Of a stretch of DNA of 64,000 nt, positions 10,601 through 43,014 are shown piece by piece. The notes under the pieces are model-generated. The model did no database searches, had not been told where the DNA came from, and worked only from the letters and a program-made list of their open reading frames with translations. The stretch is from assembly GCA_000004985.1 (NCBI GenBank), contig GG738873.1. One strand, 5' to 3'. Within the stretch, counting starts at the first letter, position 1; every line of letters begins with the position of its first letter. Source of the DNA: Naegleria gruberi (Eukaryota). The position numbers and the translations under genes were made by a program.

Positions 10601-10977
10601 TGATAGGATGAATCGTCATGTATGGTAGATTTAATTGATGATGACGAAGAATTTGAATTTAAATTATTATTATCACTATTATTATTAATATTGATGTTAG
10701 AAAACTTCTCCAACACTTCCAACTCTCTCCTCCTCAGTTCATTCCTCTCCCGTTCTCTCTCCAGTCCAATCAGTGCATCAATTCTAAACTTTTCCACTTG
10801 TTCCCTCTCCCGAATGTGTTTTGGTGTTTCAATTTCTTCATCATCAGCAGCGGATGATGCGAGTGAGAGCAAACTTTCTTTGGATGTTTCATTGGCGGGA
10901 AAATCTGTAAAGCGTTTTCTTTTGAGTGGTGTTTGTTCTTCTTCTTTAATGTTGGTATTGTTGTTACTGTTGATCAT
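7661..10977 (-). CDS. Protein with two BTB/T1 (KCTD-type) domains and a C-terminal domain of unknown function; 4 exons: 10977-9333, 9295-8761, 8715-8101, 8060-7661
   Basis: Two T1/BTB-like segments are seen (VIKLMVGGKLFITTLATINKRENMLKTML...DELNPDYFPILLEHLRTG and IIFNVRGTKFTISMEKLLIHKDSVFPSIL...FIDRDGEIFHHIFQYLQYG). Four track ORFs in different frames are joined by three short GTAAGT/GTATGT..AG introns of 37, 45 and 40 nt with exact phase continuity. The N-terminus has poly-N/S stretches. The C-terminal domain (..IPTCCVGFDGNQLYCLPRAVV..) was not recognised. Confidence 0.6.
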
Positions 10978-23332: not shown

Positions 23333-26300
23333 TTAGTGAAGGAAAAGAGTAACTATAAGTACAAACAATAATGCTATAATATTACAATAGTAAGACAAGC
23401 TAGCTTGAGAGATGATTGTTTTCTGCTTGACCAAAGTTGTGAGTGTGTAGGCACCAGTACTGCTAATATCTGCAACAACAGAATCTTTAACAAAGGTTCC
23501 AACAGTACATCCAGAATCTGTACTGAACACATCCTTGCTATCGTCATACTTTTTACAGATGAGCTCTGTATTTTGAGGAAGGGAAGTTTCATTCTTCAAA
23601 GTTTGCATTCTCAATTTTACAAGGTTGGTATTTGAAAGCTTGAATGGAGAATAGCTATTTTCTGGAACAATGTTAAACTCAATTACCTTGGTGAACATAT
23701 CAAAGTCAGAGCCGAGAGAGAATTTAGAGACAGCATTTCTCTTGTCATAGATCATAAATCTTAAACTGGCGGATGCAACGTTTGGAATCAACTTGGAGAA
23801 TGTAGAGGAGAGTGTGATGGTATTTGAATTGTAGAGAATGTCATAGAAATTATTCATACTTGGGGAGGAGAGCTTTCTACTATATCCAACAACTCCATTA
23901 CCAATCACAACAGAGGCAGGCATATCTGGAGCATTATTCTTTGTTGAGGCTGCTACAATATTAGTGTAAGTAACGCCTAAATTCTTTAAATCATCATCAG
24001 TGAACAAATTCAGAGATCTTCTACGAGTTGATACATATCCAGAAAGAGCATTAGTGGCAGCAATAACACTAGAAATAGTGTTTAAGTCAAAGTTAACACT
24101 TTTAACAGAGGCTACAGTCTCAGTCGTAGATGCAAGTGTGGAAATGATAAGAGAGGTTGTCTTATCTGTAATAAAACCTCCAGTGACAGCTGGAATAGCA
24201 TTTGAAATAACAGAAGCTGTTGAGATTGCAGAGTCGCTTGTTTCCGGAACGAGACTACTTTGAGAGGATTTGGTGGAGATTACAGCCGAAACTAAATTAT
24301 TGGCTGCTTGTGAAATCTTCTCCTTTTGAGTTGCATCCAGAGAAGAGCTTGTTACAGATCCAATTACCAATAATGCATTTGATGCATCAGTGGAGGAGAT
24401 GGTGGCAACTTGTGAGCTGATAGAGCTCAAAACTTTGAATGTTTGCTCGACTGACAAGTTTTCCACTTTAACCTGCAGGATAGATTCTGTTGAGGCACCT
24501 TTGGCATCTGAAACAACAACCTTAACTGGCACCTTGTAAGAATTTGAAGAAGATCCAGAGGCCAGTCTCACACGAATTGATTTCAAATCAACAACTTTTT
24601 CCGATAGAGGTTTCCAATAGGTGCCATCATTGAAGAAGTATTGATAAGAAAGAGGGGCTTGAGGATCATTCCATCCGTTACCACACTTTAAATCAAATTC
24701 GTCCAAAGAGTAGCCACTTTGTGGGAAAACCTCAAATACACCTCTAGTTGGTGGGAAATTGACAGTGAAAGAGATTGATGCAGAACCATTCTTATTTCCA
24801 TCAGTAATCAACAAATCAAGAGAAATTGTTAAACCTGGAACAAGACTACTCTTTGGAATGATAATATAACTGAGACTTGTCTCCAAATTTGTTAAATCAA
24901 GGTTAGAAGATGTCCATTTGTATGATGGGTTGGATAAGGAATCCAAAAGGTTAGAGTTGAAAATTACATCCTGACTGCTGTCAACTGCCGATAAGTCAAT
25001 ACTTTGAGAAATACCTTGAGGCTTGGCAGAAATAGAAGCCTTGATAATCTTATCCTTTGAATCTGATAAAATTGTAACCAATAACACCTTTTGAATGCTT
25101 CTTGAACCTTTAGAGTAGGTTGCAGTGAAAGAATATTTTCCTGGCTGAAGGAGTTGACTGAATGGAGAACTCACAGAACCACAACCAGTATTGGTGGAAA
25201 TCTTAAAACATGCAATTGTGAGTGAATCAGAATCAGAGGTTGCACTTGGATCATTCTTAACAGCAGAAAACGAAACAAGTTCGTCGTAACCTTGAGAGAA
25301 GTCGGTTACATTGAAAGATAATTCTAATGGTTGACTAATTGCCTTTACAAGGAAAATTACACTAGTTTCAAGAGCTTGATCGGCAGTAACGGTTGCCTTA
25401 AAATAATAATTTCCTTCCTTCTTAATTGAAGTATAGCCAGAGCCAAAAATGAGCATTCTATTACTTGTGGAAAGTTTGAGAGAGGTGTCTACAGAGTTCA
25501 ACTCAACTGAGTAGCTAACTTTCAGCAAGCTAGAATTTCCGCTGTAACATGATGGGAAAGTGATAGATGGGACAATAATGGAAGAGCCTCCAATTAACAC
25601 TTGAACTTCTTCTGGAATATTTATGAATGGAACAACTGTAGTAACAACAGAGAAGGACAGAGTTTGATTGGAAGAATAACCAAATTGATTTGTAACCTTA
25701 ACTACAACTGAGTAACTTCCAACATTGAGTGCATTTGCTTGTATTGTAACAACAGATGTTTTAAGAGAATTGATCATATTGTTCAAAGTGGCAGAAGATG
25801 ATGACCAAGAATAGGTCAAAGCTCTTCTATCAGAAGATGAAGATGAGGAAGCGTCAAAAGATACCTTATCACATGTTGAAACAATGGACTTATCAGACTT
25901 CAATACAGCATCTGGCGGATTAGAAACAAGTGAACCAGTGGAAACAATCACACTAACAAAATTAGTTTTCTTTAGCAAATCAGAATAGAACATTAAGGTA
26001 CTTCCAGGAACAATTGTTGTACTTGAGCCTAAAATTATTTGGAATGAATTTTCAGAACTGGTATAAAGACAAGAAGCATCACTACCACCAATCAATGGAA
26101 GACTCTCTGCTGCAATGAAATAAGAGCATTCAAACTTTGTACTTATTGGAGAGTAAACTGTACCAGTAATTACATCTCCGTTCTTATTGAAGGAGAAAGA
26201 AGAAACACTCACAGAATAGTCACAATTTTCTCCATACCAACCAGTTTGACAAGATGAACAAGTTTTTCCAGAGAAATGACCAGAGCAAACACATTCTCCC

Positions 26301-28360
26301 ATAGAATTACAATTTCCATGAGATGAGCAATTACGGGCAGGAGTACAAACATTATCGCAATTAGATCCAAAATATCCTGCTGTACAGTTTGTGCAAAACT
26401 CGCCCGAAAAATTATCAGAGCAAATACAATTCTTATTGCTGCCACAAGTTCCTCTTCCATTACATGTTTTTTCAGCACTGCATGCTGCTTCTGTGCAATT
26501 AACCCCTGAAAAGCTTGGATTACATTCAGTACATTGTGAATTTCCATTCCAGTTGGAAAGGCAAGAGCAAGTATCTACAGCAGTGCAAGAACCATGGCCT
26601 CCACAAACGCTAGATGAACTCTTGCTGATTCCATAGCATTTGAATGAATTGCATGTTTCACCTTCGAATCCAGTTTTACATTTACATTGATTTGGAGAAA
26701 TACATTCACCTTGACCACTGCAAACATTCTTATCACTTGATGGAATATCAAAACACAGAGGAACTGCACAATTAGAGCCATAATAACCAAATACACAAAC
26801 ACATCCAGAATCTGTGCAATTTCCTTTAGAGTTGCAAACACTAGAATTATCAGAGCTAATCCCATTACACACATATTTTGGAGCTGATGGGGATGAATTA
26901 TTGTTTGAGTTAGTGCTATTTTGTGGAATTGTTGAATTTTCATAAGTTGAGCTGTTTGTTATTACTGTGCTGTTGTTGACAGTCGTATTAGAGTTATTAG
27001 AGCTATTGTATACATTAGTATTATTTTGAATTACTGTTGAGTTATCTTGGATTGTATTGTTCCCATTGGTTGTGCTATTGGAAGAATTTGTGCTATTAGA
27101 TGTAGAATTTCCTGATGAGGTATTGGTAGAATTGTCAATGCTTGTATTATTCCAAGTGGTACTATTGTCTGAAACTACAGGATTGACTGGATTAGTGGTA
27201 TTGCTGTTATCTGAAACGTTGTGATGTACAGTGTTGTTATTAGAAATATCAGTATTGTTGGTCAATGTACCATTTCCATTTAAGGTACTATTATTGGTGG
27301 TTGCAGAGTTGTTTGAGGAAGTCAAACATGTGCTACCCGAGAATCCATCATTACAGACACAAGTATTAAAATCAGTACATGCCCCATTTCCATTACACAC
27401 TTGGCTACTAGTACTTGCTACCCCAAAACATGAGGTCACATTACAAGAAGCTCCTGTAAACTTGGAAACTTTCAAACCCATTCCTGATACATCAAAGGAA
27501 AGAGGGCCACCAACTGCAATAATAATACTCCATTGCTTGATGAAAATACCAACCTTGTCATAAACTGTTGTTGTTGGAACTGTTCCATAGTGAATCCAAT
27601 CAGTTCCAGTGGCAGTCTTGTAATAAAACTTGTAACCTAATGGATTCTTTCTAACAAGAAGAGGTGCATGAGTTTGAGAAGATGAAAATGTGAAGGGACC
27701 ATCTGAATAGTGATTAATCAAATCTTCAGGGAGAACATCACAATACTTTTCATTATTGACAGCTATTGTCAACTTTGATGTATCGGTTGGACCACTTCCA
27801 ATGAAATAGTTGGCATTATTTGGATTGAGGCTATTATTTCTCCATACAACCACACCAATATGAGTTAGGCCTCCTCTAGCTTTCATGTCAATAACAGCTT
27901 CATAGGACCATTCATTGAAAATGCTTCCATCTACATTTCTTGGTACATCATTAAGGATTAATTCACCTTCCATTCTGTTACACCACCACATATCTTGTGC
28001 CTTATTCTTAGTTGAAATCGATATGTTTGGATAATTTCCTTGAATCCTATTCATTTCATAACTATTGAACAATGTGTTTGGGCTTGGATCATAGAATCTC
28101 ACTCCCCAACCAGAATCAAAGTTTTGAAGATAATCGACAGCTTGAGATGAATTTGTTCCCATACAAGAACAAACATCTTGAGAAATACACGATCCCCTTC
28201 CTGAGCAAACACTTGAATTGGAGGCTGCAATACCATAACATGAAATCTCTGTCGATTCAACAACCTTAATATTATTGAATATAATAAAGCCAAGAAGGAT
28301 ATTTAGCAAGGTCACGAAGTTAAATAATAACCTAAAAGAACCAGTTATTCTTCCCTTCAT
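23333..28360 (-). CDS. Giant surface glycoprotein with tenascin-type EGF-like repeats, an N-glycan-rich low-complexity region, repeated Ig/PKD-like modules and a C-terminal hydrophobic anchor
   Basis: Complete 1675-aa ORF with a signal peptide. It carries multiple 'C..S...VCSG.G.C....C.C..G..G..C' modules (CYGIAASNSSVCSGRGSC, CNGNGACTDFNTCVCNDGFSGSTC, CSGQGECISPNQCKCKTGFEGETC and others). A ~150-aa N/S/T-rich tract (~26880-27320) holds dozens of N-x-S/T sequons. A C-terminal TM/anchor segment YYCNIIALLFVLIVTLFLH is present. Confidence 0.65.
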   Translation of the reverse strand: MKGRITGSFRLLFNFVTLLNILLGFIIFNNIKVVESTEISCYGIAASNSSVCSGRGSCISQDVCSCMGTNSSQAVDYLQNFDSGWGVRFYDPSPNTLFNSYEMNRIQGNYPNISISTKNKAQDMWWCNRMEGELILNDVPRNVDGSIFNEWSYEAVIDMKARGGLTHIGVVVWRNNSLNPNNANYFIGSGPTDTSKLTIAVNNEKYCDVLPEDLINHYSDGPFTFSSSQTHAPLLVRKNPLGYKFYYKTATGTDWIHYGTVPTTTVYDKVGIFIKQWSIIIAVGGPLSFDVSGMGLKVSKFTGASCNVTSCFGVASTSSQVCNGNGACTDFNTCVCNDGFSGSTCLTSSNNSATTNNSTLNGNGTLTNNTDISNNNTVHHNVSDNSNTTNPVNPVVSDNSTTWNNTSIDNSTNTSSGNSTSNSTNSSNSTTNGNNTIQDNSTVIQNNTNVYNSSNNSNTTVNNSTVITNSSTYENSTIPQNSTNSNNNSSPSAPKYVCNGISSDNSSVCNSKGNCTDSGCVCVFGYYGSNCAVPLCFDIPSSDKNVCSGQGECISPNQCKCKTGFEGETCNSFKCYGISKSSSSVCGGHGSCTAVDTCSCLSNWNGNSQCTECNPSFSGVNCTEAACSAEKTCNGRGTCGSNKNCICSDNFSGEFCTNCTAGYFGSNCDNVCTPARNCSSHGNCNSMGECVCSGHFSGKTCSSCQTGWYGENCDYSVSVSSFSFNKNGDVITGTVYSPISTKFECSYFIAAESLPLIGGSDASCLYTSSENSFQIILGSSTTIVPGSTLMFYSDLLKKTNFVSVIVSTGSLVSNPPDAVLKSDKSIVSTCDKVSFDASSSSSSDRRALTYSWSSSSATLNNMINSLKTSVVTIQANALNVGSYSVVVKVTNQFGYSSNQTLSFSVVTTVVPFINIPEEVQVLIGGSSIIVPSITFPSCYSGNSSLLKVSYSVELNSVDTSLKLSTSNRMLIFGSGYTSIKKEGNYYFKATVTADQALETSVIFLVKAISQPLELSFNVTDFSQGYDELVSFSAVKNDPSATSDSDSLTIACFKISTNTGCGSVSSPFSQLLQPGKYSFTATYSKGSRSIQKVLLVTILSDSKDKIIKASISAKPQGISQSIDLSAVDSSQDVIFNSNLLDSLSNPSYKWTSSNLDLTNLETSLSYIIIPKSSLVPGLTISLDLLITDGNKNGSASISFTVNFPPTRGVFEVFPQSGYSLDEFDLKCGNGWNDPQAPLSYQYFFNDGTYWKPLSEKVVDLKSIRVRLASGSSSNSYKVPVKVVVSDAKGASTESILQVKVENLSVEQTFKVLSSISSQVATISSTDASNALLVIGSVTSSSLDATQKEKISQAANNLVSAVISTKSSQSSLVPETSDSAISTASVISNAIPAVTGGFITDKTTSLIISTLASTTETVASVKSVNFDLNTISSVIAATNALSGYVSTRRRSLNLFTDDDLKNLGVTYTNIVAASTKNNAPDMPASVVIGNGVVGYSRKLSSPSMNNFYDILYNSNTITLSSTFSKLIPNVASASLRFMIYDKRNAVSKFSLGSDFDMFTKVIEFNIVPENSYSPFKLSNTNLVKLRMQTLKNETSLPQNTELICKKYDDSKDVFSTDSGCTVGTFVKDSVVADISSTGAYTLTTLVKQKTIISQASLSYYCNIIALLFVLIVTLFLH

Positions 28361-28684: not shown

Positions 28685-29242
28685 TTACAAATCATCATTA
28701 TTTAATTGTGAATATTGTGATGGTGATGAAGAACCTCTTGAACGAGCAGTTACAATAATTCTATTCAATCCACAACAACAAAGAGGCAATAAACAGAACA
28801 ATAAAATAGCTCCACTAGCTCCAATCCAAGATCCGATAATAATCTTTTGATTTGTTGACTCCTCAGTGTTACTGTTAGGCTTCTTGATATTCTCACTCAG
28901 AGCCAATGAATAAATAACAATCAGTGCAATGGTTGCTCCCATCGAAATTAAAATCCAAATCATCCAATGGAAAGCACAACCAAGTAAATATTTGGAGAGT
29001 TTTCCTGGTTCATTTCCGAAACAGTCAATCACAGAAGCAACACCAACTACTCCAGTCAAGATGAAAACAGAGAGTGCAACATAGGTGAGAATGGTGAAGG
29101 CAAGTTCTCCACCTTCTGGGTGATAGCCATCTTTCACTTGGAGAACAATTTGAGCAATTAGATAACCCAATGATGGGAGTAAAAGACCGATTGAGCCTAT
29201 CAGTGTGCAAATGATGGATGCTGCAGAGGAAGAGACGGCCAT
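28685..29242 (-). CDS. Small four-transmembrane membrane protein, hypothetical
   Basis: 185-aa ORF with four predicted hydrophobic helices and a CCCG motif in the last helix. Family not recognised. Confidence 0.45.
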   Translation of the reverse strand: MAVSSSAASIICTLIGSIGLLLPSLGYLIAQIVLQVKDGYHPEGGELAFTILTYVALSVFILTGVVGVASVIDCFGNEPGKLSKYLLGCAFHWMIWILISMGATIALIVIYSLALSENIKKPNSNTEESTNQKIIIGSWIGASGAILLFCLLPLCCCGLNRIIVTARSRGSSSPSQYSQLNNDDL

Positions 29243-32092: not shown

Positions 32093-35000
32093 TTATTTGA
32101 ATAATTGAACAGTTGTCATTTCTCTGGTGGCTTGAACTTGCTTGATAATTCTAAATTCCTCTGTCAAAACAAATCTAGAATAGGTATCCATCAAATTGTA
32201 AACAATATCCGTCATTAGATCCATAATAACCTCATTGGTGGCAGTCTTTAACTCGGCAACTTCGCTTCCATTGAGAGTATTAATGTTAGTATTGAGAAGA
32301 GTATTGTGGAGAATCAAGTACTTTCTTCTCGTGATTGAATTGATATTGACAGACATTTCAGAAGAGGAATCAATGTGAGTTTTGAAAAGTTCATCCATCT
32401 CTGTAACAACCCTGTCCCATTCCCCAATATTCGCATTTGAAGGAGAAATGACATCTGAAAAATCTTGCTTGAATTTTTCCAAACGAATCCAAATAATATA
32501 ATTCTCCAAACTCATCTCAGTTTTGGTGTATTGACGGAATAATTTCAACAAGTACTTGTTTTGTTTGAGAGTCAAAACCTCAAATTTTTCATCAAACTCT
32601 TGGAAGGCATTGGCTTGCTTTTTAGTGAACCATCCTCCCTTAGTAAATTCAGTCTTGAGAGCCCAAACAACAACAAATCCACCAAATGCAATAATCAAAC
32701 AAATAGTCATTAAAGTTTCAAACAAGAATATAACACTATCCATCATGTCAACTATGTCGTTATTGGTAGAGTCGCCAGAGAATCTCAAACTCAAAGTTGA
32801 AAAACCAACCAAGTAAGAAACTATAAAGAAAAGCATTGCTGCCAAATAAAAGATAACCTCCGTTCTGAACATTAGTACATCATTTGAAATGAATGTTTTG
32901 AAAATGGATCCTAGTAATCTACCTCCTTTTGCAAGCTCCTGAGAAAAATTATTCTTGACGAGTGCTTGTTGGGAATTAGCAGTTGAAGAATCGATTACTA
33001 ATGAATTCATTTCCTCAGCAATATCAACAACTTCATCTGACATTTGTTTGTTTGACTTTTCGAGAACTAGATCAGTAACATAAATAGCAATAATCACCAT
33101 AGTCATTATTATCAACAAGATGAAAATAGATACCGTTGAAGCAGTTGAGAATTGAGCAGTGGTAAGTGAGCTATCTCCTCTTAAAATAACAAAAATGGAA
33201 AAGTAGATGAGAAAAAGTACTCCAGTAATTATGCTAGTAACGACAAGGACAGTCTGCTTTTTCAAAATATTCAGATACTTGACCATGGAATCCTTCTTGT
33301 TTGTTTCTATTGCTTTCATCATCCACTCATAAAAATACCTGTGAACTAGATATCTGAGTGACATTATCATGTAACACCAAATAGCAGCAGCTCTCATCGA
33401 TGTAGAAATGACAGTGCAAATAGAAACCATTAAATCCAATCTCAATGAAGGGAAATATGAGTAATGGAGCAGGATTGATTTGGAAAATATTCCAACAGCT
33501 AAATTTTCAATAAACAGAGAGGCAAGAGCCAAATGTGGGGTAATGTATCTGGACTTGACAGGTTGTTTCTTCCTTAATATAATTAACAACGCAAATATTA
33601 TGCCAATAACTACAAGAAATATGGAAGAAATGGCAATATTAGCAGTGGAGAGAGAATCATGAATACTCCTATCATTCCTCTTATAGGGAGCTTCTGAGAA
33701 ATCGATAAATGCTGAGAACCTTGTTGTGTGATCACAATAGCATGTCACCGTTCCATTACTGTATGAGGTACTACAACCGTTTTGAAGCCATTTCATTTCA
33801 GTTTCATTCCAATATCTACAGACATAGGTCTTGACAATCTCTGGGTTCGAAGAGTTACTGTTAAGTGTGGAATTGATTAAGGTTTCATTGATAGTCCCCT
33901 CATCAATGGTAAAAGTTAGGGTGATATTCTCAGATAGATTGTTGAGTGGAACATAGGTACCACTTACTAGGGTCTTGAATTGTAAAATTTTGGCACCAGG
34001 AAAAGAAATAGATTGATCAGTGAAAAACTGTTCAGGAGAGGATTCAAATCGAACAATGCCAAAACTAGTAGCAGAAGGTCCCAACGCAGCACCAATAGTA
34101 GAGGGAATAGCCACACTGTGAGAGGCATCAATAGGGCTACTTCCTCTATTCTCATCTAAAACAACGAGTACTACAAAGTTTTTCGTTTCAACTTTGACTG
34201 GTTCTTTTTTTCCCTCATTCTTATTGGAGATTGCAATAGCAGAGAGTGAGCTATCAATGGCCTTTTGCATTGTTTTCAATTCGAGTGACAATTCCACAAG
34301 GTTAGAGGCAATTAGTAATAAATTAGTGGAAATATTGTTGATGATGATGGTAGCCGAATGTAATTTTTTCAAAGTGTCTGAGAAATCATTCACTGTTTTG
34401 GAAATAGCTTCCTTGCCAGCTTCTGTGAGATAGTTAGTATAGACAGAGTCGGTAATAACCAATAGAGTTTGGGTTAAAAAGATACTCTGTTCAGTGGTAA
34501 TGTTTGAGGTCTTGTTTGTGAGGGTACTAGCTATAACCTCAATCAGTTCTGTCTTGTTGGTTACATTTTGTAGATTGTTAGCAATTTGATTAATAGATCC
34601 AATATCTAGCTCTTTAATCCTACTTGGATTATCCGTTACTTGTTTTAGAGAGAAAACTGATATTGACCTTGATTGAGAACTATTACCAACAATGATATCA
34701 TAGTTTCTATCAATAATTGTGGCTTCAATTGAATATTCTCCAACAGTTAGAAGTGGCAATTTCCAGGTTAGAGAGGTTGTGTTTTCAGAGTAGAAATAAT
34801 TGCCATTCCTAATTGTAAATGTTATAATCAAGGATTCCTTCTTATTGTAATAGGTTGTAAAATTAGAGTCTGCAAAGCTTAAAATAACATGAGTGTTGTT
34901 GGACTGAGTATCCAACATGGAGCTATCTGTCAATGAGAGGATTACGTTCTCACCAGCTATTAACAGTGCTCCACAATCAAAACCATCGCTATTAGAATTG

Positions 35001-35860
35001 CAACTACAAACATCTAAAATCTGGCATTGGCCCTTTCCTTGACAGACATCTGAGCTATTGGACAATATCGAAAAACAACTAGTCAACCCACAATTCGATC
35101 CAAAATGTCCTGCAGAACATGAACAAACATCTGGAAGTGTGCAATTACCTCTCCCAGAACAAACCAATGAGCTCTGATAATCCACAGAGAAACACGAATA
35201 GGATGAACAATTAGAATCATAATATTCACTCTGACAAGTACATGAACCATTGGCCGTACAATTTCCACGTCCAGAACAAACAAGAGGTGATTCCTGTGTC
35301 AATGAATCACAAACATACAAGTTATTGCACTTATTTCCATAATAACCAACACTACATGAACAATTGTTCTTGGAAATGCACTTTCCATGACCAGAACATA
35401 CAGAAGAACTTGATGAAGACTGTCCATAGCATTTGTAATTATCACCATCATCGTCGTCATCGCCTTCATCGTCATCACTCTCGTCTGATATCGAACGGGA
35501 GTGGTGGGTCTTGTCTCGATAAATTATGTTGTTGTTGATGGTGGGTATTTCTTGGCCCTGTACCAAAATTATCCAATTAGAATTGTGTTTGAGAAACCTT
35601 CTCGGTGATGGCAACACATTATTATTATTATTCGAAATTAATAGATTCCAATAATTACTATTCGAAAATACATCCGATGAAATTAGCAAAAAGCAAACAG
35701 ACACTATGAAAATTAGAACAACACATAAGTTCCTCCTCGCCGAATAATTCCAACATAATTTTAAAACTGATGATATGTAATTCTCCTTCCGCATACATGA
35801 TAATTTCCCCTCCAAAATACAACAAGCATCATCTTCCGTATTACTTCTAACAAGTAGCAT
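32093..35860 (-). CDS. Adhesion-GPCR-like receptor: signal/anchor, four tenascin-type EGF modules, extracellular region, GPS motif (~33694-33826), 7TM domain (~32830-33640), C-terminal RGS domain (~32140-32610)
   Basis: EGF modules include CYGQSSSSSSVCSGHGKCISKNNCSCSVGYYGNKC and three more. The GPS signature is C-x2-W-x6-W-x3-GC-x10-C-x-C-x-HTT-x-F, seen as VCRYWNETEMKWLQNGCSTSYSNGTVTCYCDHTTRFSAFIDF, immediately ahead of seven hydrophobic helices. The C-terminus has RGS signature blocks: FRQYTKTEMSLENYIIWIRLEKFK, EMSVNINSITRR and IMDLMTDIVYNLMDTYSRFVLTEEF. Single 1255-codon ORF. The true start is probably MRKENY ahead of the hydrophobic LCVVLIFIVSVCFLLISS. Confidence 0.7.
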   Translation of the reverse strand: MLLVRSNTEDDACCILEGKLSCMRKENYISSVLKLCWNYSARRNLCVVLIFIVSVCFLLISSDVFSNSNYWNLLISNNNNNVLPSPRRFLKHNSNWIILVQGQEIPTINNNIIYRDKTHHSRSISDESDDDEGDDDDDGDNYKCYGQSSSSSSVCSGHGKCISKNNCSCSVGYYGNKCNNLYVCDSLTQESPLVCSGRGNCTANGSCTCQSEYYDSNCSSYSCFSVDYQSSLVCSGRGNCTLPDVCSCSAGHFGSNCGLTSCFSILSNSSDVCQGKGQCQILDVCSCNSNSDGFDCGALLIAGENVILSLTDSSMLDTQSNNTHVILSFADSNFTTYYNKKESLIITFTIRNGNYFYSENTTSLTWKLPLLTVGEYSIEATIIDRNYDIIVGNSSQSRSISVFSLKQVTDNPSRIKELDIGSINQIANNLQNVTNKTELIEVIASTLTNKTSNITTEQSIFLTQTLLVITDSVYTNYLTEAGKEAISKTVNDFSDTLKKLHSATIIINNISTNLLLIASNLVELSLELKTMQKAIDSSLSAIAISNKNEGKKEPVKVETKNFVVLVVLDENRGSSPIDASHSVAIPSTIGAALGPSATSFGIVRFESSPEQFFTDQSISFPGAKILQFKTLVSGTYVPLNNLSENITLTFTIDEGTINETLINSTLNSNSSNPEIVKTYVCRYWNETEMKWLQNGCSTSYSNGTVTCYCDHTTRFSAFIDFSEAPYKRNDRSIHDSLSTANIAISSIFLVVIGIIFALLIILRKKQPVKSRYITPHLALASLFIENLAVGIFSKSILLHYSYFPSLRLDLMVSICTVISTSMRAAAIWCYMIMSLRYLVHRYFYEWMMKAIETNKKDSMVKYLNILKKQTVLVVTSIITGVLFLIYFSIFVILRGDSSLTTAQFSTASTVSIFILLIIMTMVIIAIYVTDLVLEKSNKQMSDEVVDIAEEMNSLVIDSSTANSQQALVKNNFSQELAKGGRLLGSIFKTFISNDVLMFRTEVIFYLAAMLFFIVSYLVGFSTLSLRFSGDSTNNDIVDMMDSVIFLFETLMTICLIIAFGGFVVVWALKTEFTKGGWFTKKQANAFQEFDEKFEVLTLKQNKYLLKLFRQYTKTEMSLENYIIWIRLEKFKQDFSDVISPSNANIGEWDRVVTEMDELFKTHIDSSSEMSVNINSITRRKYLILHNTLLNTNINTLNGSEVAELKTATNEVIMDLMTDIVYNLMDTYSRFVLTEEFRIIKQVQATREMTTVQLFK

Positions 35861-36148: not shown

Positions 36149-38291
36149 ATGGGCAATGAACAATCAGCACCAACTTCATCAGTACCAGCAGGTACAGAAT
36201 TAGCTACAATGCCAATTCGTCGTAACACAACTAACTATGCTTCCACAGCTGGCAGCTCATCCATCACAGCCTCCTCCACAAACAACAACCTTCTCAACAA
36301 TAGTACTACATCCAACAATCACGATCCTAACAATAATTCAAATAATCAAAATAATGGAAATTTCCTCTCCCTCCTCACCACCTCCCAAACATTAATTTAT
36401 GGCTATGCAAACAATGCCTCCCATCAAGTTGATCCATTCCGATCCAATGTAAAACAATTGGCCGATTTAATCAGACCAAATGCTCTTCAACTCGCTCCTC
36501 AGGAAGGCTTCTTTCATATCAGCGTCATGTTGGATGAAATCTGCAAGACTCACGAAGACATTTTAAATAACTATCGTAAATATTTGCCACTGGTAGAGTT
36601 TGCATTGAGCGGGAAAACTGAGAACAATGTATTGTTTGGATCAGGTGGTGGTGGGAGTATTTTTGGCGCCACTTCTTCATCTGCCTCCTCTTCAAAGGAA
36701 GCCTTTGAAAAATTGTTATTCTCTCTAAAAAATCACATTAACAATACGAGGAATGCTATTGAGGGATTGGTTGCTGCTTCGGAGAGTTATGAGAGGAGAA
36801 GTTTAAAGGCTAGTAATCAATCGTCGCATTCTCAGACTGCTTCAATGGTTAATTTGTTACCAACTTCGGGAATTACTTCGTTTGATTGGTCGACAATTGC
36901 TAATAAGAAGGTAAATTTTGATTTTAATTGATGATTAATAATTTTAATAATTATTCAATAATAATATATATATTATATTATACAAATTTAATACAAAATT
37001 TTGGAATTGTTATTGAATGGATAACATACAAATATTAAATTATATTGATTGGAATAATTATTTAATATTTTAGAAATATTTTCAAATTAAGGATGAAATT
37101 GAAATATTGCTAACATACCACTTGGAAGAATTACGTGGATATAAAGAAATTGTGGAAAAGGCTAATGCAAAAGGAGATACAGAAGTTAATGTAGCAACTA
37201 TAATTTCTGATGAATTTGCTGCAGAATTTTGGAAAACTAATTGTGGAGCTAATGTATTTTCTATTGATAAGGAAGCATTTATTGACTTGTTGGATGCTAA
37301 CTTTCAGGGTTGGTCTAAACGTGTAAAAAAAACATGGGTTGAGGAGATATCAGAGCTCATAGATCCAACCTGTGACAGTGTTGTTTCCATTGTAGATTTC
37401 AAAACTGTTTTACAATGGTTCGGTCCTTTCACAATTTCCTTCTTTACACCTATGGACAGTTTTTTAGCCCAGAAACATTTTTGGGGAAGTATTTCATCCA
37501 TGGAAGCTCAACACTTACTTGATTCCCAGGAGCCTGGTACTTTCCTCATTAGATTTTCTGAAATTGAAGCTGGTGCTTTTTCTATAAGTGTTGTAGAACA
37601 AGAGAGTGATGACAATTTAGGTCTCTCAGGTGGTGAATCTACCATTTTCAAGCAAACTTCTCACTTTATATTGAGAAGGAAAAAGGAAGACCAAAAATTC
37701 CTCTTTATTCTTTGTGAAAATGATACTGAATTCAAATGTGAAACTGTTGATCAATTAATCAAACAATATCGTTTGACATTTAAATATCCATTCACTGATG
37801 AAACTCAAAAATTAGAAGTTAAACAACAAGAGGACGAGTTGGACTTTTTCAATTTTATGAAATCAACAGCTGCTCTCAGTGCTCTTGACGATGATGAAGA
37901 AAACTCAAACTTTGTAAAATTCAGAGGAAGAATTGTTGACAAGTCCATTGCCAAGCAAAATGAAAAAGTTCCTCCAAACTCTACCAAAAAGACACCAACT
38001 TCAGCCACACTCAGCACTCCAAAACCATCTGGTCACAATAGAGTTCTCTCAACAGCTAGTAGTAGTGGAAATTCTTCTCCAGTACCAAATACTCCAACTA
38101 CCATTGCTGTAGCTTCACCGACAACCACTCCTTCTACCACTCTTCCATCTGATAAGAATATCACTACACCACAACCAGCAGCATCATCATCATCTGCAAC
38201 AGTTAGTAGTAGTGCCAATTCTACCACCAGTAGTAGTAGTACACCATCAATAGATGAAAATAATATTGCTCTTGAGGAAAAGAAGCAATAA
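36149..38291 (+). CDS. Cbl-type TKB-domain protein (4-helix bundle + EF-hand + variant SH2) with no RING finger and a Ser/Thr-rich tail; 2 exons: 36149-36910, 37074-38291
   Basis: N-terminus MGNEQSAP fits a myristoylation consensus. The EF-hand/SH2 stretch (IISDEFAAEFWKTNCGANVFSI...DPTCDSVVSIVDFKTVLQWFGPF...FWGSISSMEAQHLLDSQEPGTFLIRFSEIEAGAFSISVV) aligns by eye with the c-Cbl TKB region (ITKADAAEFWRKAFG...[23 protein letters not shown]...[20 protein letters not shown]). No C3HC4 pattern follows. The intron is a 163-nt AT-rich GTAAAT..TTTAG. Confidence 0.65.
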
Positions 38292-38575
38292 TTTCAAGAT
38301 TAGTTTGATTTAATTGAATCATTAAATCTTTAAATTATTATCCACCATTTTATAACTTTTCTACAATTTTAGAAATGAAATCAATCTGGATTCATTGGTA
38401 ATACATCATAAACAAGCTAAATATGCTATTTGAGTATTTGGTTTATTTCAAGAAATCACCAAACAACTCAACATACCATAAATGGTTATTCATTACAAAA
38501 AGTAATTCATTTAAATTTAAATTTGCTTTAAAACCAGAGAGTCACCATCCACTTGAAAACAATAAGAAAAAAGAA

Positions 38576-39202
38576 ATGAAAGTTTATTTTGCGCTTTGCA
38601 TTGCAGTAGTTTTGTGCCTTGTCAATTTTGGAATCTGTCAAGGGGATCGTTACATTCCAAGTCATCCACTCGATCAGTACAACAAGCCAGCAGACAACAA
38701 ACATCAAGCACCAAATGCGCTTCCATACTATCCGTACATGCCAATTTACATTCCACAATTTAAGGCACCAGAATATAAAATTCCTGAACCTCCAAAGTAT
38801 ACCATTCCAGAAGCTCCTAAAGCTCCTCAAGCTCCATGGAATTATCTTCACAATGCTCCAAGTTACTATGCTCAACCATTTAATTCAGAAGAATTTAAAA
38901 AGTACATGCCAGATTGGTTAAATGCCAAACCACTCCATGCTCAACAACCAAAGGATTTCCCTAAATTCCCTCAATTCCCTCAATATGCTGGAAATCAACA
39001 TCAATATGGACAACAATATGCCTCGCCTTATGCTCCACAAGATTGGAATGAATTCTTCAAGAAGCAATACCCATGGACTGAACAATACAATGCCTTCCCT
39101 TGGAGCACTCAAAAACAAGGTTTTGCCAAACCATTGAAATCTGTTGGTTCCATTTCAGAGTCTGACAATAATGTTAGTGGAGATGAAAGCGAAACCATTT
39201 AA
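38576..39202 (+). CDS. Secreted Pro/Tyr/Gln-rich low-complexity protein
   Basis: An internal ATG at 38576 begins a classic signal peptide (MKVYFALCIAVVLCLVNFGICQG). It is followed by PxY/PKxP-type repeats (PYYPYMPIYIPQFKAPEYKIPEPPKYTIPEAPKAPQAP). The longer track ORF starting at 38423 is probably 5' leader. Confidence 0.5.
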   Translation: MKVYFALCIAVVLCLVNFGICQGDRYIPSHPLDQYNKPADNKHQAPNALPYYPYMPIYIPQFKAPEYKIPEPPKYTIPEAPKAPQAPWNYLHNAPSYYAQPFNSEEFKKYMPDWLNAKPLHAQQPKDFPKFPQFPQYAGNQHQYGQQYASPYAPQDWNEFFKKQYPWTEQYNAFPWSTQKQGFAKPLKSVGSISESDNNVSGDESETI

Positions 39203-39570: not shown

Positions 39571-40383
39571 TTACACTTCGTCATCAACATCATTTAGCTC
39601 CATTCCATTGGAATGTTTTGGTTGGGTTGGTTGATAAAAGTTACTAGTAACATCTTGATTCTCTGGATTAGTAATGCATAGAATTGGAATTTCACAAGCA
39701 AGAAAATATTCTGATGAGGTGGAGCTTACACAATCTGGATCAGAATTACAATTCTCAGAATCTTCTTCTAAACGAGTTAATGTGTGATCAGTTTCATCAT
39801 TAAAAGAAAACGTACGATCTTCTTCGATAGTCTTAATAGTCAACGCTTGTGAACCAACAGTAGACAATGTTGTTGTTGTAGAAAAGAGAGATGAAGTTGA
39901 TTGTGGATAAACCTTATTATCTGACTTGTTTCTGAGAGATCCTAGTCTTGGCATGGAGAGACCTCTCTTTGGTTTTGAAGGTAAATTATCAAGGGAGGAT
40001 GTGGTGGAGTGTGTTGAAGAGATGGTTCTAGCAGTGGTGGAAGTACTAAGGAGAGATGAAGTTGGTCTATAACATGTGGATGAGGTGGAAAGTGTTCTCG
40101 AGGTGCTATTAGTAGCAGTATGTGTTGTAGCAGAGGAAATGGTTGAAGAGAGTGAATTAACCTTAATAAAGAAGGCAGGCTTGGCACTTGGTTTACGAGT
40201 CAGTATATCGACCAGTTTGTTTCCACTCTTACTAGTTTCATCATCCTTCTTCAAACTCTTCTGACTTGTCTTTTTGAGGCTTGATGATGACGACGATGAA
40301 TCACTTAGGACGGTTACTGTCGTCGAGGTTGTATTTGAATTTACAGCTGAGTTTCCCATTTTCCTTAGTCGAGAGAGAAACAA
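39571..40383 (-). CDS. Ser/Thr-rich hypothetical protein
   Basis: 270-aa ORF dominated by S/T runs. No domain recognised. The start could instead be the internal MGNSAV. Confidence 0.4.
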   Translation of the reverse strand: MFLSRLRKMGNSAVNSNTTSTTVTVLSDSSSSSSSLKKTSQKSLKKDDETSKSGNKLVDILTRKPSAKPAFFIKVNSLSSTISSATTHTATNSTSRTLSTSSTCYRPTSSLLSTSTTARTISSTHSTTSSLDNLPSKPKRGLSMPRLGSLRNKSDNKVYPQSTSSLFSTTTTLSTVGSQALTIKTIEEDRTFSFNDETDHTLTRLEEDSENCNSDPDCVSSTSSEYFLACEIPILCITNPENQDVTSNFYQPTQPKHSNGMELNDVDDEV

Positions 40384-41562: not shown

Positions 41563-43014
41563 ATGCAACATCATACCGTCAGATTATACTCGTTGCTGCT
41601 CATGTTGTTGGTTAGCACAGCGTTGATATGTTCGACATGGACTTTTTCAGCAGCTGTAGAAGGATCAAAACTACCAAGAATAACAACAACAACTATGGAT
41701 TATACTCCATTATTTATGCACTTGGCATTTACATCAGTGCCGACTGAGATGGTGGTTTCATTTCATACCAATGATTATGATGAAAAGATTTTGGGTAAAC
41801 CTTTTGTAAAATATGGAAAGGAGGATACATTAAAGATTGGAGCTAAAGTTTCGTGGATTGGAGCTGTGATTACTCAATATGGTGATGTGAAACATACTGG
41901 ATACGATTTTAATATTTTAATGAAGGATTTGGAATATCAAACCAAGTATTATTATCAAGTTGGGTTTTTGGGAAGTAATGTAACTTCTGGTGTTTATAAT
42001 TTCCATACCAGAACTGATCCAAGATCAATTGATAGTTTTGAAACTACAGTTGTCATGTATGGAGATCAGGGAACAACCAATTCAAAGTATGCCATTGCTC
42101 AAGTTGAGAATTTTATTCATTCTTTTTACAATGACAAGTCGGCAAAGAATATGTTTATTTATCATTTAGGTGATATTTCATACGCTGATGATTGGCCTGG
42201 AATTTTATATCAAGTAATCTGGGCTCGTTATTTAGACATGATGTCAAACATTATGCCATTTGTATCTTACATGACCTTGCCTGGAAATCATGAAAAGGGA
42301 CCAAAAATTCCACCTTATCATTCCTACGAAGAAGGATTTGTTGCTTACAATCATAGATTCTTCATGCCACTCAGAAATGATTCTCGCTTTGGACATAACA
42401 TGTGGCACTCTTTCCAACATGGTCCAATTACCTTTGTGAGTATTGACACCGAAACCAATTTCCCTCACAATTTCTATCCTGAGTACGATTTTAAGGGAGA
42501 TCAAATGAAGTGGTTAGACGAAACTTTGAGCAAAATTGATAGAAAGGTAACACCTTGGGTTATAGTTTTAGGACATAGACCAATTTATACTTCAAAGCAT
42601 GGATTTAGTAATGCTGAAGGTATTCCAGAAGGTCAAGCCATAATTGTCCAAGATGCATTTGAAGAAATATTGTACAAGTATCATGTTGATATTGCCACAT
42701 TTGGGCATGTTCACTCGTATCAGAGAACTTTTCCTACGTACAAGTTACAAGTAGAAACCAAGACTAATTATCACAATTTAAGATATCCTATTCACATTAT
42801 TAATGGAGCTGGTGGTTGCTTGGAAGGAATTACTATTTTCATGCACAAATATTCACCTTGGAGTGCAAAAATTTTCAATGAAGATGAAGCATATGGAATT
42901 TTGAGAACCTCCTATAATCCAACAACCAGAGTACACAAGATTACCTTCAATTTGCATGCTGCTAAAACTAATGAAATTGTAGACACTGTAACAATAACCA
43001 AAGATGCCTATTAA
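41563..43014 (+). CDS. Purple acid phosphatase (calcineurin-like metallophosphoesterase), secreted
   Basis: Signal peptide present. The conserved metal-ligand motif series is there: GDQG, GDISYAD, GNHE, VLGHRP, GHVHSYQR. Single-exon 483-aa ORF. Confidence 0.85.
   Translation: MQHHTVRLYSLLLMLLVSTALICSTWTFSAAVEGSKLPRITTTTMDYTPLFMHLAFTSVPTEMVVSFHTNDYDEKILGKPFVKYGKEDTLKIGAKVSWIGAVITQYGDVKHTGYDFNILMKDLEYQTKYYYQVGFLGSNVTSGVYNFHTRTDPRSIDSFETTVVMYGDQGTTNSKYAIAQVENFIHSFYNDKSAKNMFIYHLGDISYADDWPGILYQVIWARYLDMMSNIMPFVSYMTLPGNHEKGPKIPPYHSYEEGFVAYNHRFFMPLRNDSRFGHNMWHSFQHGPITFVSIDTETNFPHNFYPEYDFKGDQMKWLDETLSKIDRKVTPWVIVLGHRPIYTSKHGFSNAEGIPEGQAIIVQDAFEEILYKYHVDIATFGHVHSYQRTFPTYKLQVETKTNYHNLRYPIHIINGAGGCLEGITIFMHKYSPWSAKIFNEDEAYGILRTSYNPTTRVHKITFNLHAAKTNEIVDTVTITKDAY

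What the first reader, a model, noticed from the sequence alone, without database searches (positions are those of the whole stretch)
36149..38291. Cbl-like TKB-only protein: 4H/EF-hand/SH2 with no RING, an N-myristoylation motif and a mucin-like tail
The EF-hand and variant-SH2 segments align motif-by-motif with the c-Cbl tyrosine-kinase-binding domain (AAEFW.., D.TC...S...F, GTFLIRFS). The ORF then runs for ~230 residues of S/T-rich sequence with no C3HC4 RING pattern and stops. A RING-less, membrane-targeted TKB protein (MGNEQS start) would act as a phosphotyrosine binder that cannot ubiquitinate, much like a natural v-Cbl-type dominant negative.
Basis: partly seen in the sequence, partly recalled or inferred. 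Interest (0 to 1): 0.55.

Follow-up and report, generated by a model that had tools for sequence, protein, structure and literature searches.

The report
RING-less, myristoylated Cbl-type TKB adaptor
This Naegleria gruberi gene encodes a probably membrane-anchored phosphotyrosine-binding protein whose core folds like the substrate-binding (TKB) domain of the Cbl ubiquitin ligases but has no ligase (RING) part. It belongs to a conserved RING-less family in heterolobosean amoebae and is not a broken Cbl.

Summary
The observation largely holds. The window is Naegleria gruberi. The two-exon gene (36149-36910 and 37074-38291) translates to a 659-aa protein identical to the public entry "SH2 domain-containing protein".

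- **Domains:** Pfam finds a Cbl EF-hand-like domain (Cbl_N2) followed by a generic SH2. It does not find Cbl_N or Cbl_N3.
- **No RING:** The protein has no Zn-ligand pattern. The downstream intergenic DNA has no usable exon. Orthologues in N. lovaniensis, N. fowleri and Willaertia stop after the same C-terminal motif.
- **Myristoylation motif:** The MGxxxS/T start recurs in 15 of 19 family N-termini.
- **Tail:** The S/T/P-rich tail is about 113 aa, not about 230.

The "v-Cbl-like dominant negative" reading is only partly supported. No RING-bearing Naegleria partner was found, though this was not tested exhaustively. The RING-less clade is separate from the RING-bearing amoebozoan CblA clade. 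I read the protein as a membrane-tethered phosphotyrosine reader or adaptor, a new variant of a known module. Interest is moderate.

The parts
36149..38291 (+). Whole coding region (two exons plus intron) of the 659-aa SH2 domain-containing protein
   Evidence: The spliced translation is 100% identical over 100% of its length to the public N. gruberi protein P0001.
36149..36910 (+). Exon 1, aa 1-254
   Evidence: ATG at 36149 in an A-rich context. The exon ends before a GTAAAT donor.
36911..37073 (+). Intron, 163 nt, GT..AG, phase 0, AT-rich. It interrupts the region coding the start of helix D of the four-helix bundle.
   Evidence: Removing it restores the frame and reproduces the annotated protein.
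37074..38291 (+). Exon 2, aa 255-659 plus TAA stop
36149..36169 (+). N-myristoylation motif M-G-N-E-Q-S-A (Gly2, Ser6)
   Evidence: It fits G-{EDRKHPFYW}-x2-[STAGCN]-{P}. Of 19 family N-termini, 15 start MG and 12 fit the full pattern.
36170..36433 (+). N/S/T-rich low-complexity linker, aa 8-95, between the lipid anchor and the folded core
   Evidence: Composition of aa 1-84 is N 21%, S 17%, T 15%. It is not conserved between Naegleria species.
36434..37172 (+). Four-helix-bundle region (aa 96-287; helices about 96-108, 122-148, 185-223, 253-287). A G/S-rich disordered loop lies between helices B and C. The region spans the intron.
37191..37466 (+). Cbl-type EF-hand-like domain, aa 294-385
   Evidence: Pfam Cbl_N2 26.7 bits, cut-off 22. 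PDB profile hits are to Cbl and Cbl-b.
37362..37397 (+). EF-hand loop D351-P-T353-C-D355-S-V357-V-S-I-V-D362. Positions 1, 3, 5 and 12 are invariant among the five closest sequences and align with the c-Cbl [14 protein letters not shown] loop.
   Evidence: Invariant columns. Alignment to PDB 1b47.
37473..37796 (+). SH2 domain, aa 388-495, with a roughly 20-aa acidic/Gly insertion between strands C and D
37551..37553 (+). Codon AGA for Arg414 in GTFLIRFS, the beta-B5 arginine that binds phosphotyrosine in SH2 domains
   Evidence: Invariant in the family and at least 90% conserved across 70 relatives. It aligns with the FLxR motif of SHP2 and Src.
37797..37949 (+). Conserved post-SH2 region, aa 496-546: a helix (about 497-517, containing the DFxxF[MIL]K motif) and an FxxF[RK]G[RK] motif (534-541)
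   Evidence: Conserved across the heterolobosean family. Model pLDDT is 91 at the start of the helix, falling to 61-74, and about 90 at the FRGR motif. The helix contains no Tyr.
37950..38264 (+). S/T/P-rich low-complexity tail, aa 547-651
   Evidence: S+T+P is 53% of aa 547-659. The sequence is not conserved between species, but a tail of this composition is present in each.
38265..38291 (+). Conserved extreme C-terminal hydrophobic-acidic motif IALEEKKQ plus stop codon
   Evidence: The same ending occurs in N. lovaniensis (IILEEK*), metagenomic relatives (IILEEKQ*, IVLEEN*) and Willaertia (IKLIEEK*, IQLVEE*, IVQIEE*).
38292..38566 (.). Intergenic spacer before the next + strand gene. It holds no exon that could encode a RING.
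   Evidence: All three + frames carry many stop codons and no Zn-ligand pattern.

Best explanation
The gene encodes a stand-alone, RING-less Cbl-type tyrosine-kinase-binding (TKB) module that works as a membrane-tethered phosphotyrosine reader or adaptor. It is not a ubiquitin ligase.

Proposed mechanism:
1. Gly2 is N-myristoylated and holds the protein at a membrane through an ~85-aa flexible linker (inferred from a conserved motif).
2. The four-helix bundle, the EF-hand and the SH2 form one integrated TKB-like unit. The EF-hand keeps the residues at the positions of the c-Cbl EF-hand loop (shown at the level of confident structure prediction and profile homology).
3. The SH2 pocket, with its invariant beta-B5 Arg414 and beta-D4 His451, binds a tyrosine-phosphorylated partner (inferred).
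4. The conserved post-SH2 segment, the disordered S/T/P tail and the conserved C-terminal hydrophobic-acidic motif recruit or present other factors (inferred; partners unknown).

The protein is the N. gruberi member of a family conserved in Heterolobosea. That family is a branch of the wider protist 'Cbl_N2 EF-hand + SH2' cassette, of which the RING-bearing Cbl/CblA ligases are another branch.
For: **Identity and gene model**
-.

**Domains**
- Cbl_N2 and SH2 both score above their Pfam thresholds.

**Homology to Cbl**
- A heterolobosean-only EF profile has Cbl and Cbl-b chains as its 31 best PDB hits, the only ones below E = 0.01 (best E = 3.7e-4).
- An EF plus N-terminal-half-SH2 profile aligns c-Cbl in one stretch (profile positions 4-133, E = 3.5e-10).

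**Fold**
- The AlphaFold model has pLDDT 85.6 and pTM 0.86.
- The Foldseek top 50 are all Cbl-family TKB structures, with TM-score up to 0.72 normalised to the target.

**No ligase part**
- No RING or Zn-ligand pattern is present in the protein, the window or the orthologue loci.

**Conservation of the architecture**
- Full-length relatives are in N. lovaniensis, N. fowleri and Willaertia magna (three paralogues), with a more distant MG-start, RING-less relative in Pharyngomonas.
- Of 19 family N-termini, 15 start MG.
- The C-terminal motif is conserved.
- Arg414, His451 and the EF-loop residues are invariant.

**Separate lineage**
- The RING-bearing relatives form their own clade with 100% bootstrap support, excluding this family.
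Against: - Nothing here is biochemical. Myristoylation, Ca2+ binding and phosphotyrosine binding are all inferred.
- The four-helix bundle has no sequence-level match to Pfam Cbl_N. It rests on an AlphaFold model built from only about 17 sequences in that region. AlphaFold was trained on Cbl structures, so the domain packing could be partly recalled.
- The alpha-A2 arginine of many SH2 domains is replaced here (Met in N. gruberi).
- Naegleria is reported to have no conventional tyrosine kinases, 3 PTPs and 5 SH2 domains (PMC4342544). The writer of the presumed ligand is therefore unknown.
- Myristate alone is a weak anchor, and no second membrane signal (Cys or a basic patch) is evident.
- N. 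lovaniensis has Pro at position 6 of the motif.
Confidence: 0.6

Rival explanations
1. Natural decoy. The protein competes with a full-length, RING-bearing Cbl-like ligase of Naegleria for the same phosphotyrosine sites and protects them from ubiquitination, as v-Cbl does against c-Cbl.
For: It has a TKB-like fold without a RING. RING-bearing EF-SH2 proteins exist in other protists.
Against: All RING-bearing relatives that carry an organism name are dictyostelids (Acytostelium, Heterostelium); the rest are unnamed metagenome or transcriptome sequences. None of the named top hits is a Naegleria RING protein. The RING-less architecture, with its own conserved N- and C-terminal motifs, is retained across Heterolobosea, which suggests an autonomous function. 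The family is not nested in the RING clade. The N. gruberi proteome could not be searched exhaustively.
Confidence: 0.1
2. Substrate receptor for a ligase supplied in trans. The TKB binds a phosphoprotein, and the conserved post-SH2 helix, FxxFRGR motif or C-terminal motif docks a separate E3 or sorting machinery. The outcome would still be down-regulation of the bound target, in the manner of SH2-plus-SOCS-box proteins.
For: The ~50-aa post-SH2 segment and the extreme C-terminal motif are conserved although the sequence between them is not. The FRGR motif is modelled with pLDDT about 90.
Against: No Pfam domain (SOCS box, F-box, U-box) is found there. No partner is identified. No RING or BTB gene is functionally linked. 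The BTB gene at 9247-10977 is 25 kb away and unrelated.
Confidence: 0.15
3. The SH2 no longer reads phosphotyrosine. The module binds phosphoserine/threonine or unphosphorylated ligands, as the SPT6 SH2 does. This would fit an organism that lacks conventional tyrosine kinases.
For: Naegleria is reported with 0 group-A tyrosine kinases (PMC4342544). The alpha-A2 Arg is absent (alignment).
Against: The beta-B5 Arg and beta-D4 His are invariant. Cbl itself lacks the alpha-A2 Arg (general knowledge). Three PTPs are reported in Naegleria. Dictyostelium runs SH2/STAT signalling with TKL kinases only (PMC4758236).
Confidence: 0.1
4. Annotation or assembly artefact: a truncated Cbl gene whose RING exon was missed, or a pseudogene.
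For: None beyond the absence of the RING.
Against: The stop follows a C-terminal motif conserved in at least 6 orthologues and paralogues that also stop there. Stops fill all frames downstream. No RING pattern lies within +-4 kb in two other Naegleria genomes. The core is 46-64% identical between species with invariant functional residues, which indicates purifying selection.
Confidence: 0.02
5. STAT-like protein: a coiled-coil plus linker-SH2 factor that dimerises through pTyr-SH2 and acts in the nucleus.
For: GTFLIRFSE resembles the STAT SH2 motif (from memory). Dictyostelium STATa (1uur) aligns from the second EF-hand half into the SH2 (E = 2.3e-9).
Confidence: 0.03

Closest known systems
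Metazoan Cbl family (c-Cbl, Cbl-b, Cbl-c): N-terminal TKB domain
   Different: It has no linker-helix tyrosine and no RING, so no intrinsic E3 activity. It has no proline-rich or UBA tail. Identity to c-Cbl is only 13-16%. Pfam Cbl_N and Cbl_N3 do not match, and the SH2 scores as a generic SH2. It adds an N-myristoylation motif, a long CD-loop insertion, a conserved post-SH2 FxxFRGR motif and a C-terminal acidic motif.
Dictyostelid CblA-like proteins (P0030 Acytostelium, P0038 Heterostelium 'RING zinc finger-containing protein'), relatives of D. discoideum CblA
   Same: They are among the closest named RING-bearing relatives of the EF-SH2 unit (E about 1e-18 to 1e-16 against the Naegleria profile). 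They carry Cbl_N2 plus SH2. They are protist proteins from organisms without conventional tyrosine kinases.
   Different: They end in a C3HC4 RING (PF13920, 55-56 bits) and lack the MG start. They form a separate, 100%-supported clade. Similarity to the Naegleria family covers only EF plus the N-terminal half of the SH2.
v-Cbl (retroviral Gag-fused TKB-only fragment of c-Cbl)
   Same: It is a TKB domain without a linker or RING, so a phosphotyrosine binder that cannot ubiquitinate (general knowledge).
   Different: v-Cbl is a recent truncation of a ligase and acts against the full-length cellular protein. The Naegleria protein is an ancient, conserved, independently elaborated architecture with no demonstrated full-length counterpart.
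STAT linker-SH2 unit (Dictyostelium STATa, PDB 1uur)
   Same: A helical EF-hand-like linker is directly fused to an SH2. It is detectable by sequence profile (E = 2.3e-9). The GTFL[IL]RFSE motif is shared.
   Different: It has no DNA-binding domain and no C-terminal tyrosine. Its overall fold match is to Cbl, not STAT.
N-myristoylated kinase-less pTyr adaptors of animals (SLAP/SLAP2, FRS2): functional analogy only
   Same: They combine a lipid anchor, a phosphotyrosine-binding module and a tail that recruits other proteins (general knowledge; SLAP2-Cbl complex 6xar appears).
   Different: Their domain types differ (SH3-SH2 or PTB). No homology is implied.

Membership tests
Cbl-family RING E3 ligases (TKBD + linker helix + RING; definition as in PMC5015263) | C3HC4 RING finger C-terminal to the TKB | tested here: not met
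   There is no RING Pfam hit. The protein has only 5 Cys and 11 His, with none but H575 after residue 476. No RING pattern lies downstream or in the orthologue loci.
Cbl-family RING E3 ligases | Linker helix region with the regulatory tyrosine (c-Cbl Tyr371) | tested here: not met
   A helix follows the SH2 (aa 497-517), but the last Tyr in the protein is Y492.
Cbl-family RING E3 ligases | EF-hand-like subdomain (Pfam Cbl_N2) | tested here: met
   26.7 bits against a cut-off of 22. Cbl and Cbl-b chains are the only PDB hits below E = 0.01 for the heterolobosean 4H+EF profile. However, 53 of 75 diverse protist SH2 proteins with other architectures also carry this domain, so it is not diagnostic on its own.
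Cbl-family RING E3 ligases | Four-helix bundle (Pfam Cbl_N) by sequence | tested here: not met
   There is no Cbl_N hit at E <= 1. Profile positions 1-140 stay unaligned to Cbl chains.
Cbl-family RING E3 ligases | Variant SH2 (Pfam Cbl_N3) | tested here: not met
   Only the generic SH2 model PF00017 matches. Fourteen of 75 more distant relatives do hit Cbl_N3.
Cbl-family RING E3 ligases | E2-dependent ubiquitin ligase activity | not testable with these tools
   This needs an in vitro ubiquitination assay. It is not expected without a RING.
TKB domain as a structural module (4H + EF-hand + SH2 packed as one unit) | All three subdomains present in order and superposable on a solved TKB | tested here: met
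TKB domain as a structural module | EF-hand loop residues at the positions of the c-Cbl loop | tested here: met
   D351, T353, D355 and D362 occupy loop positions 1, 3, 5 and 12. They align with the D, T, N and E of the c-Cbl [14 protein letters not shown] loop and are invariant among the five closest sequences. That these are Ca2+ ligands in c-Cbl is general knowledge. Metal binding itself was not tested.
Phosphotyrosine-binding SH2 domains | Beta-B5 arginine in the FLxR motif; beta-D4 histidine | tested here: met
   R414 and H451 are invariant or nearly invariant. R414 aligns with the FLVR Arg of SHP2 and Src.
Phosphotyrosine-binding SH2 domains | Measured pTyr-dependent ligand binding | not testable with these tools
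   This needs peptide-binding experiments.
N-myristoylated proteins | Met1-Gly2 with a small or uncharged residue 3, Ser/Thr at 6 and no Pro at 7 | tested here: met
   MGNEQSA fits the pattern. Of 19 family N-termini, 12 fit it fully and 15 start MG.
N-myristoylated proteins | Actual attachment of myristate by NMT | not testable with these tools
   This needs metabolic labelling or mass spectrometry.
STAT transcription factors | DNA-binding domain between the coiled coil and the linker; C-terminal phosphorylatable Tyr | tested here: not met

The most novel reading that the evidence does not exclude
The integrated Cbl-type TKB module (four-helix bundle + EF-hand + SH2) is older than, and independent of, its fusion to a RING. 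Heterolobosea (Discoba) would carry an ancient, vertically inherited lineage of N-myristoylated, RING-less TKB adaptors. Either the module dates back to near the root of eukaryotes, or it crossed between Amoebozoa and Heterolobosea early. Either way, membrane-proximal phosphotyrosine reading would exist in a lineage that lacks conventional tyrosine kinases.
Probability: 0.3. Interest if true: 0.65.

Novelty: new variant of a known kind. Interest (0 to 1): 0.45.

Why it matters
The TKB domain is treated as the hallmark of the Cbl ligases of animals, with one Dictyostelium homologue. If this reading is right, the same three-part module serves as a lipid-anchored, ligase-free adaptor in Heterolobosea, a distant eukaryotic supergroup that includes the pathogen N. 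fowleri.

- It would separate the origin of the phosphotyrosine-recognition unit from the origin of the E3.
- It would add a concrete, testable reader to the very small phosphotyrosine toolkit reported for Naegleria (0 conventional tyrosine kinases, 3 PTPs, 5 SH2 domains).
- It would give a natural RING-less TKB for asking what the module does by itself.

The protein is already in public databases as a generic "SH2 domain-containing protein". I found no paper in the searchable library that discusses it.

Tried and rejected
- **First AlphaFold run** on a 5-sequence alignment gave pLDDT 42 and was discarded. The 70-sequence alignment was needed.
- **Single-sequence phmmer** of the 4H+EF region against PDB found only low-complexity noise. 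Profiles were needed.
- **The search for homologous proteins** with the full protein or with alignment A3 was swamped by low-complexity words, returning 5 and 7 hits. With a clean EF-SH2 core it returned nothing, not even the query itself. I therefore could not list all N. gruberi paralogues or prove the absence of a RING-bearing one.
- **afdb50 fold library** was unavailable.
- **Key SH2-evolution papers** (PMC4255630, PMC3415846) are not held.
- **A bootstrap using Kimura distances** produced NaNs from saturation and was discarded. It was redone with Poisson distances.
- **Missed RING exon:** considered and rejected.
- **STAT-like identity:** considered and rejected.
- **Secreted mucin:** considered and rejected. 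There is no signal peptide; the N-terminus is a myristoylation motif and the core is a cytosolic signalling module.
- **RING partner in the window:** no RING gene is present. The single regex match at 29031-29156 (-) lies in a 185-aa ORF (28685-29242) with no Pfam hit.
Full report
**Where we are.** The window is AT-rich eukaryotic DNA (about 34% GC). The gene in question comes from Naegleria gruberi. Exon 1 (36149-36910) is joined to exon 2 (37074-38291) across a 163-nt GT..AG intron. The result is a 659-aa protein that is 100% identical, end to end, to the public entry "SH2 domain-containing protein [Naegleria gruberi]".

**Checking the observation: domains by sequence.**
- Pfam finds two domains above their curated thresholds. 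These are the Cbl EF-hand-like domain (Cbl_N2, 26.7 bits against a cut-off of 22, aa 299-374) and a generic SH2 (41.4 bits, aa 390-486).
- Cbl_N (four-helix bundle), Cbl_N3 (Cbl-variant SH2) and every RING model fail to match, even at E <= 1.
- Single-sequence searches of PDB see only ordinary SH2 domains and the linker-SH2 junction of Dictyostelium STATa.
- Profiles built only from heterolobosean relatives are more informative. The N-terminal-plus-EF profile has Cbl and Cbl-b chains as its 31 best PDB hits, the only ones below E = 0.01 (best E = 3.7e-4). It aligns AAEFW..FGE and IDpTCDxxVSxxDF..WFGP with c-Cbl AAEFWRKAFGE and [23 protein letters not shown].
- A profile of the EF-hand plus the first half of the SH2 aligns c-Cbl in one unbroken stretch (E = 3.5e-10). 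STATa aligns over a shorter span (E = 2.3e-9).
The GTFLIRFS motif is that of a canonical SH2 rather than the Cbl variant.

**Checking the observation: the fold.**
- A first AlphaFold run on five sequences was useless (pLDDT 42).
- An exhaustive profile search of 1.8 billion representatives supplied 568 relatives. A 70-row alignment then gave a confident model (pLDDT 85.6, pTM 0.86).
- The model has four long helices with a disordered G/S loop between the second and third. These are followed by an EF-hand-like helical domain, an SH2, a further helix and a short conserved segment.
- In Foldseek against PDB, the top 50 hits are all c-Cbl, Cbl-b or Cbl-c TKB structures (prob 1.00, TM-score up to 0.72 normalised to the target).
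- EF plus SH2 account for only about 175 residues, so the alignment must include most of the four-helix bundle.
- The "4H/EF-hand/SH2" claim is thus supported, but for the 4H part only by predicted structure.

**Checking the observation: no RING, N-terminus, tail.**
- The protein has five Cys and eleven His in all, and only His575 lies after residue 476.
- The 275 bp before the next gene are full of stops in every frame.
- No ORF scanned in the window has a RING domain.
- In N. lovaniensis and N. fowleri the orthologous genes end the same way, with no RING-like pattern within 4 kb.
- The stop codon follows a short hydrophobic-acidic motif: IALEEKKQ here; IILEEK, IILEEKQ, IVLEEN, IKLIEEK, IQLVEE and IVQIEE in relatives. 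This shows it is the true, conserved C-terminus.
- MGNEQSA fits the N-myristoylation consensus. Of 19 family N-termini, 15 begin MG and 12 fit the full pattern.
- The S/T/P-rich tail is 113 residues (53% S+T+P), not about 230. The 50 residues after the SH2 are conserved and partly well modelled.

**What the relatives say.**
- Full-length relatives are other Naegleria species and three Willaertia magna paralogues. A more distant member in Pharyngomonas kirbyi also starts MG and also lacks a RING. Several unnamed environmental sequences complete the set.
- No family member carries a RING pattern.
- Beyond the family, similarity shrinks to the EF-hand + SH2 cassette. That cassette is widespread in protists, and the named examples are Amoebozoa.
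- Of 75 such proteins, 72 have an SH2, 53 Cbl_N2, 14 Cbl_N3, 10 a protein kinase, 7 a C-terminal RING, 3 RhoGAP and 2 RasGEF (examples).
- Two of the RING-bearing proteins are dictyostelid CblA-like proteins (Acytostelium, Heterostelium).
- In a rough neighbour-joining tree of the cassette, all RING-bearing proteins, plus the Synstelium protein P0047 in which no RING pattern was seen, form one clade with 100% bootstrap support. The heterolobosean family forms another with 67% support.
- The Naegleria protein therefore does not look like a CblA that recently lost its RING.
- Cbl_N2 + SH2 alone is not enough to call something a Cbl.

**How it most likely works.**
- Shown at the level of sequence and confident prediction:
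  - a conserved Gly2 myristoylation signal;
  - a flexible low-complexity linker;
  - an integrated TKB-like unit whose EF-hand loop keeps the residues at the positions of the c-Cbl loop (D351, T353, D355, D362);
  - an SH2 that keeps the phosphotyrosine-binding beta-B5 Arg414 and beta-D4 His451;
  - a family-specific post-SH2 helix and FxxFRGR motif;
  - a disordered tail ending in a conserved short motif.
- Inferred: the protein sits on a membrane, binds a tyrosine-phosphorylated partner through the TKB, and uses its C-terminal parts to bring in or hold other factors. It cannot ubiquitinate by itself.
- Naegleria is reported to have no conventional tyrosine kinases, three PTPs and five SH2 domains (PMC4342544). 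Dictyostelium shows that TKL kinases can drive SH2 signalling (PMC4758236).
- I put 0.6 on this adaptor model.

**Rivals.**
- Trans-acting E3 receptor: 0.15.
- Decoy against an undiscovered Naegleria RING-Cbl: 0.10.
- Non-pTyr ligand: 0.10.
- STAT-like factor: 0.03.
- Annotation artefact: 0.02.

**Comparison with what is known.**
- The Cbl family is defined by TKBD + linker helix + RING (PMC5015263).
- This protein meets the TKBD criterion structurally and the EF-hand criterion by sequence.
- It fails the RING and linker-tyrosine criteria, and the Cbl_N and Cbl_N3 sequence criteria.
- It should therefore not be filed as a Cbl ligase. It is a TKB-type module in a different architecture.
- v-Cbl is the only well-known TKB-only protein. 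It is a viral truncation, not a conserved cellular family.
- Functionally, the nearest analogues are lipid-anchored, enzyme-less phosphotyrosine adaptors such as SLAP/SLAP2 or FRS2. This is analogy only.

**Novelty and limits.**
- The protein has been in databases since the genome release, and its Pfam domains are precomputed.
- I found no paper in the searchable library that discusses a Cbl-type TKB in Naegleria or Heterolobosea. Two key SH2-evolution papers could not be read.
- The main gaps:
  - there is no biochemical evidence;
  - the four-helix bundle rests on AlphaFold with shallow coverage;
  - I could not enumerate all N. gruberi SH2 proteins to exclude a RING-bearing paralogue.
- I rate it a new variant of a known kind, with moderate interest (0.45).

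Noticed in passing
window 32093-35860 (-): The neighbour transcribed divergently from the SH2 gene is a 1255-aa receptor-like protein. It has EGF repeats, a GPS-like CYCDHTTRFSAF motif, hydrophobic stretches that look like several transmembrane segments, and a C-terminal RGS domain (23.1 bits, just under the 23.9 cut-off). The N. lovaniensis gene next to the SH2 orthologue carries a Pfam GPS hit, so the adjacency is at least partly conserved.
   Followed up: partly
window 23333-28360 (-): A 1675-aa ORF carries EGF, DSL and REJ (polycystin-1-like) domains.
   Followed up: no
window 38265-38288 and family C-termini (P0002, P0003, P0005, P0008, P0009, P0010, P0015): The extreme C-terminus is a conserved hydrophobic-acidic motif ([IVL]x[LI][EQ][ED]..) placed after a non-conserved low-complexity tail. 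It looks like a short linear docking motif. Its partner is unknown.
   Followed up: partly
window 37797-37949 (aa 496-546): The family-specific post-SH2 helix and FxxF[RK]G[RK] motif are absent from Cbl. The motif is modelled at pLDDT about 90. Model coordinates could not be inspected, so what it packs against is unknown.
   Followed up: partly
relatives P0022, P0026, P0027, P0053 and others: The Cbl_N2 EF-hand + SH2 cassette is a general building block in protists, and the named examples are Amoebozoa. It is often duplicated in tandem and is fused to LRR-TKL kinases, RhoGAP, RasGEF, copine/C2 and other domains. A Cbl_N2 Pfam hit alone is a poor indicator of a Cbl ligase.
   Followed up: partly
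Willaertia magna P0008 (ABK040_009153) and P0009 (ABK040_009156): Two family paralogues lie three gene numbers apart on the same 159-kb contig, which suggests a local duplication. A third paralogue (P0015) lacks the MG start.
   Followed up: no
window 39571-40383 (-): An S/T-rich ORF with no Pfam hit has an internal Met that would give MGNSAVNS, another possible N-myristoylation start. The true start was not determined.
   Followed up: no
window 38567-39202 (+): The gene immediately downstream encodes a small protein with a hydrophobic, signal-peptide-like N-terminus. It is rich in P, Q and Y and has no Pfam match.
   Followed up: no
window 41563-43014 (+); 9247-10977 (-); 5269-6816 (+): Ordinary neighbours: a purple acid phosphatase, a BTB_2 domain protein, and a P4-type phospholipid flippase fragment (multi-exon).
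   Followed up: no
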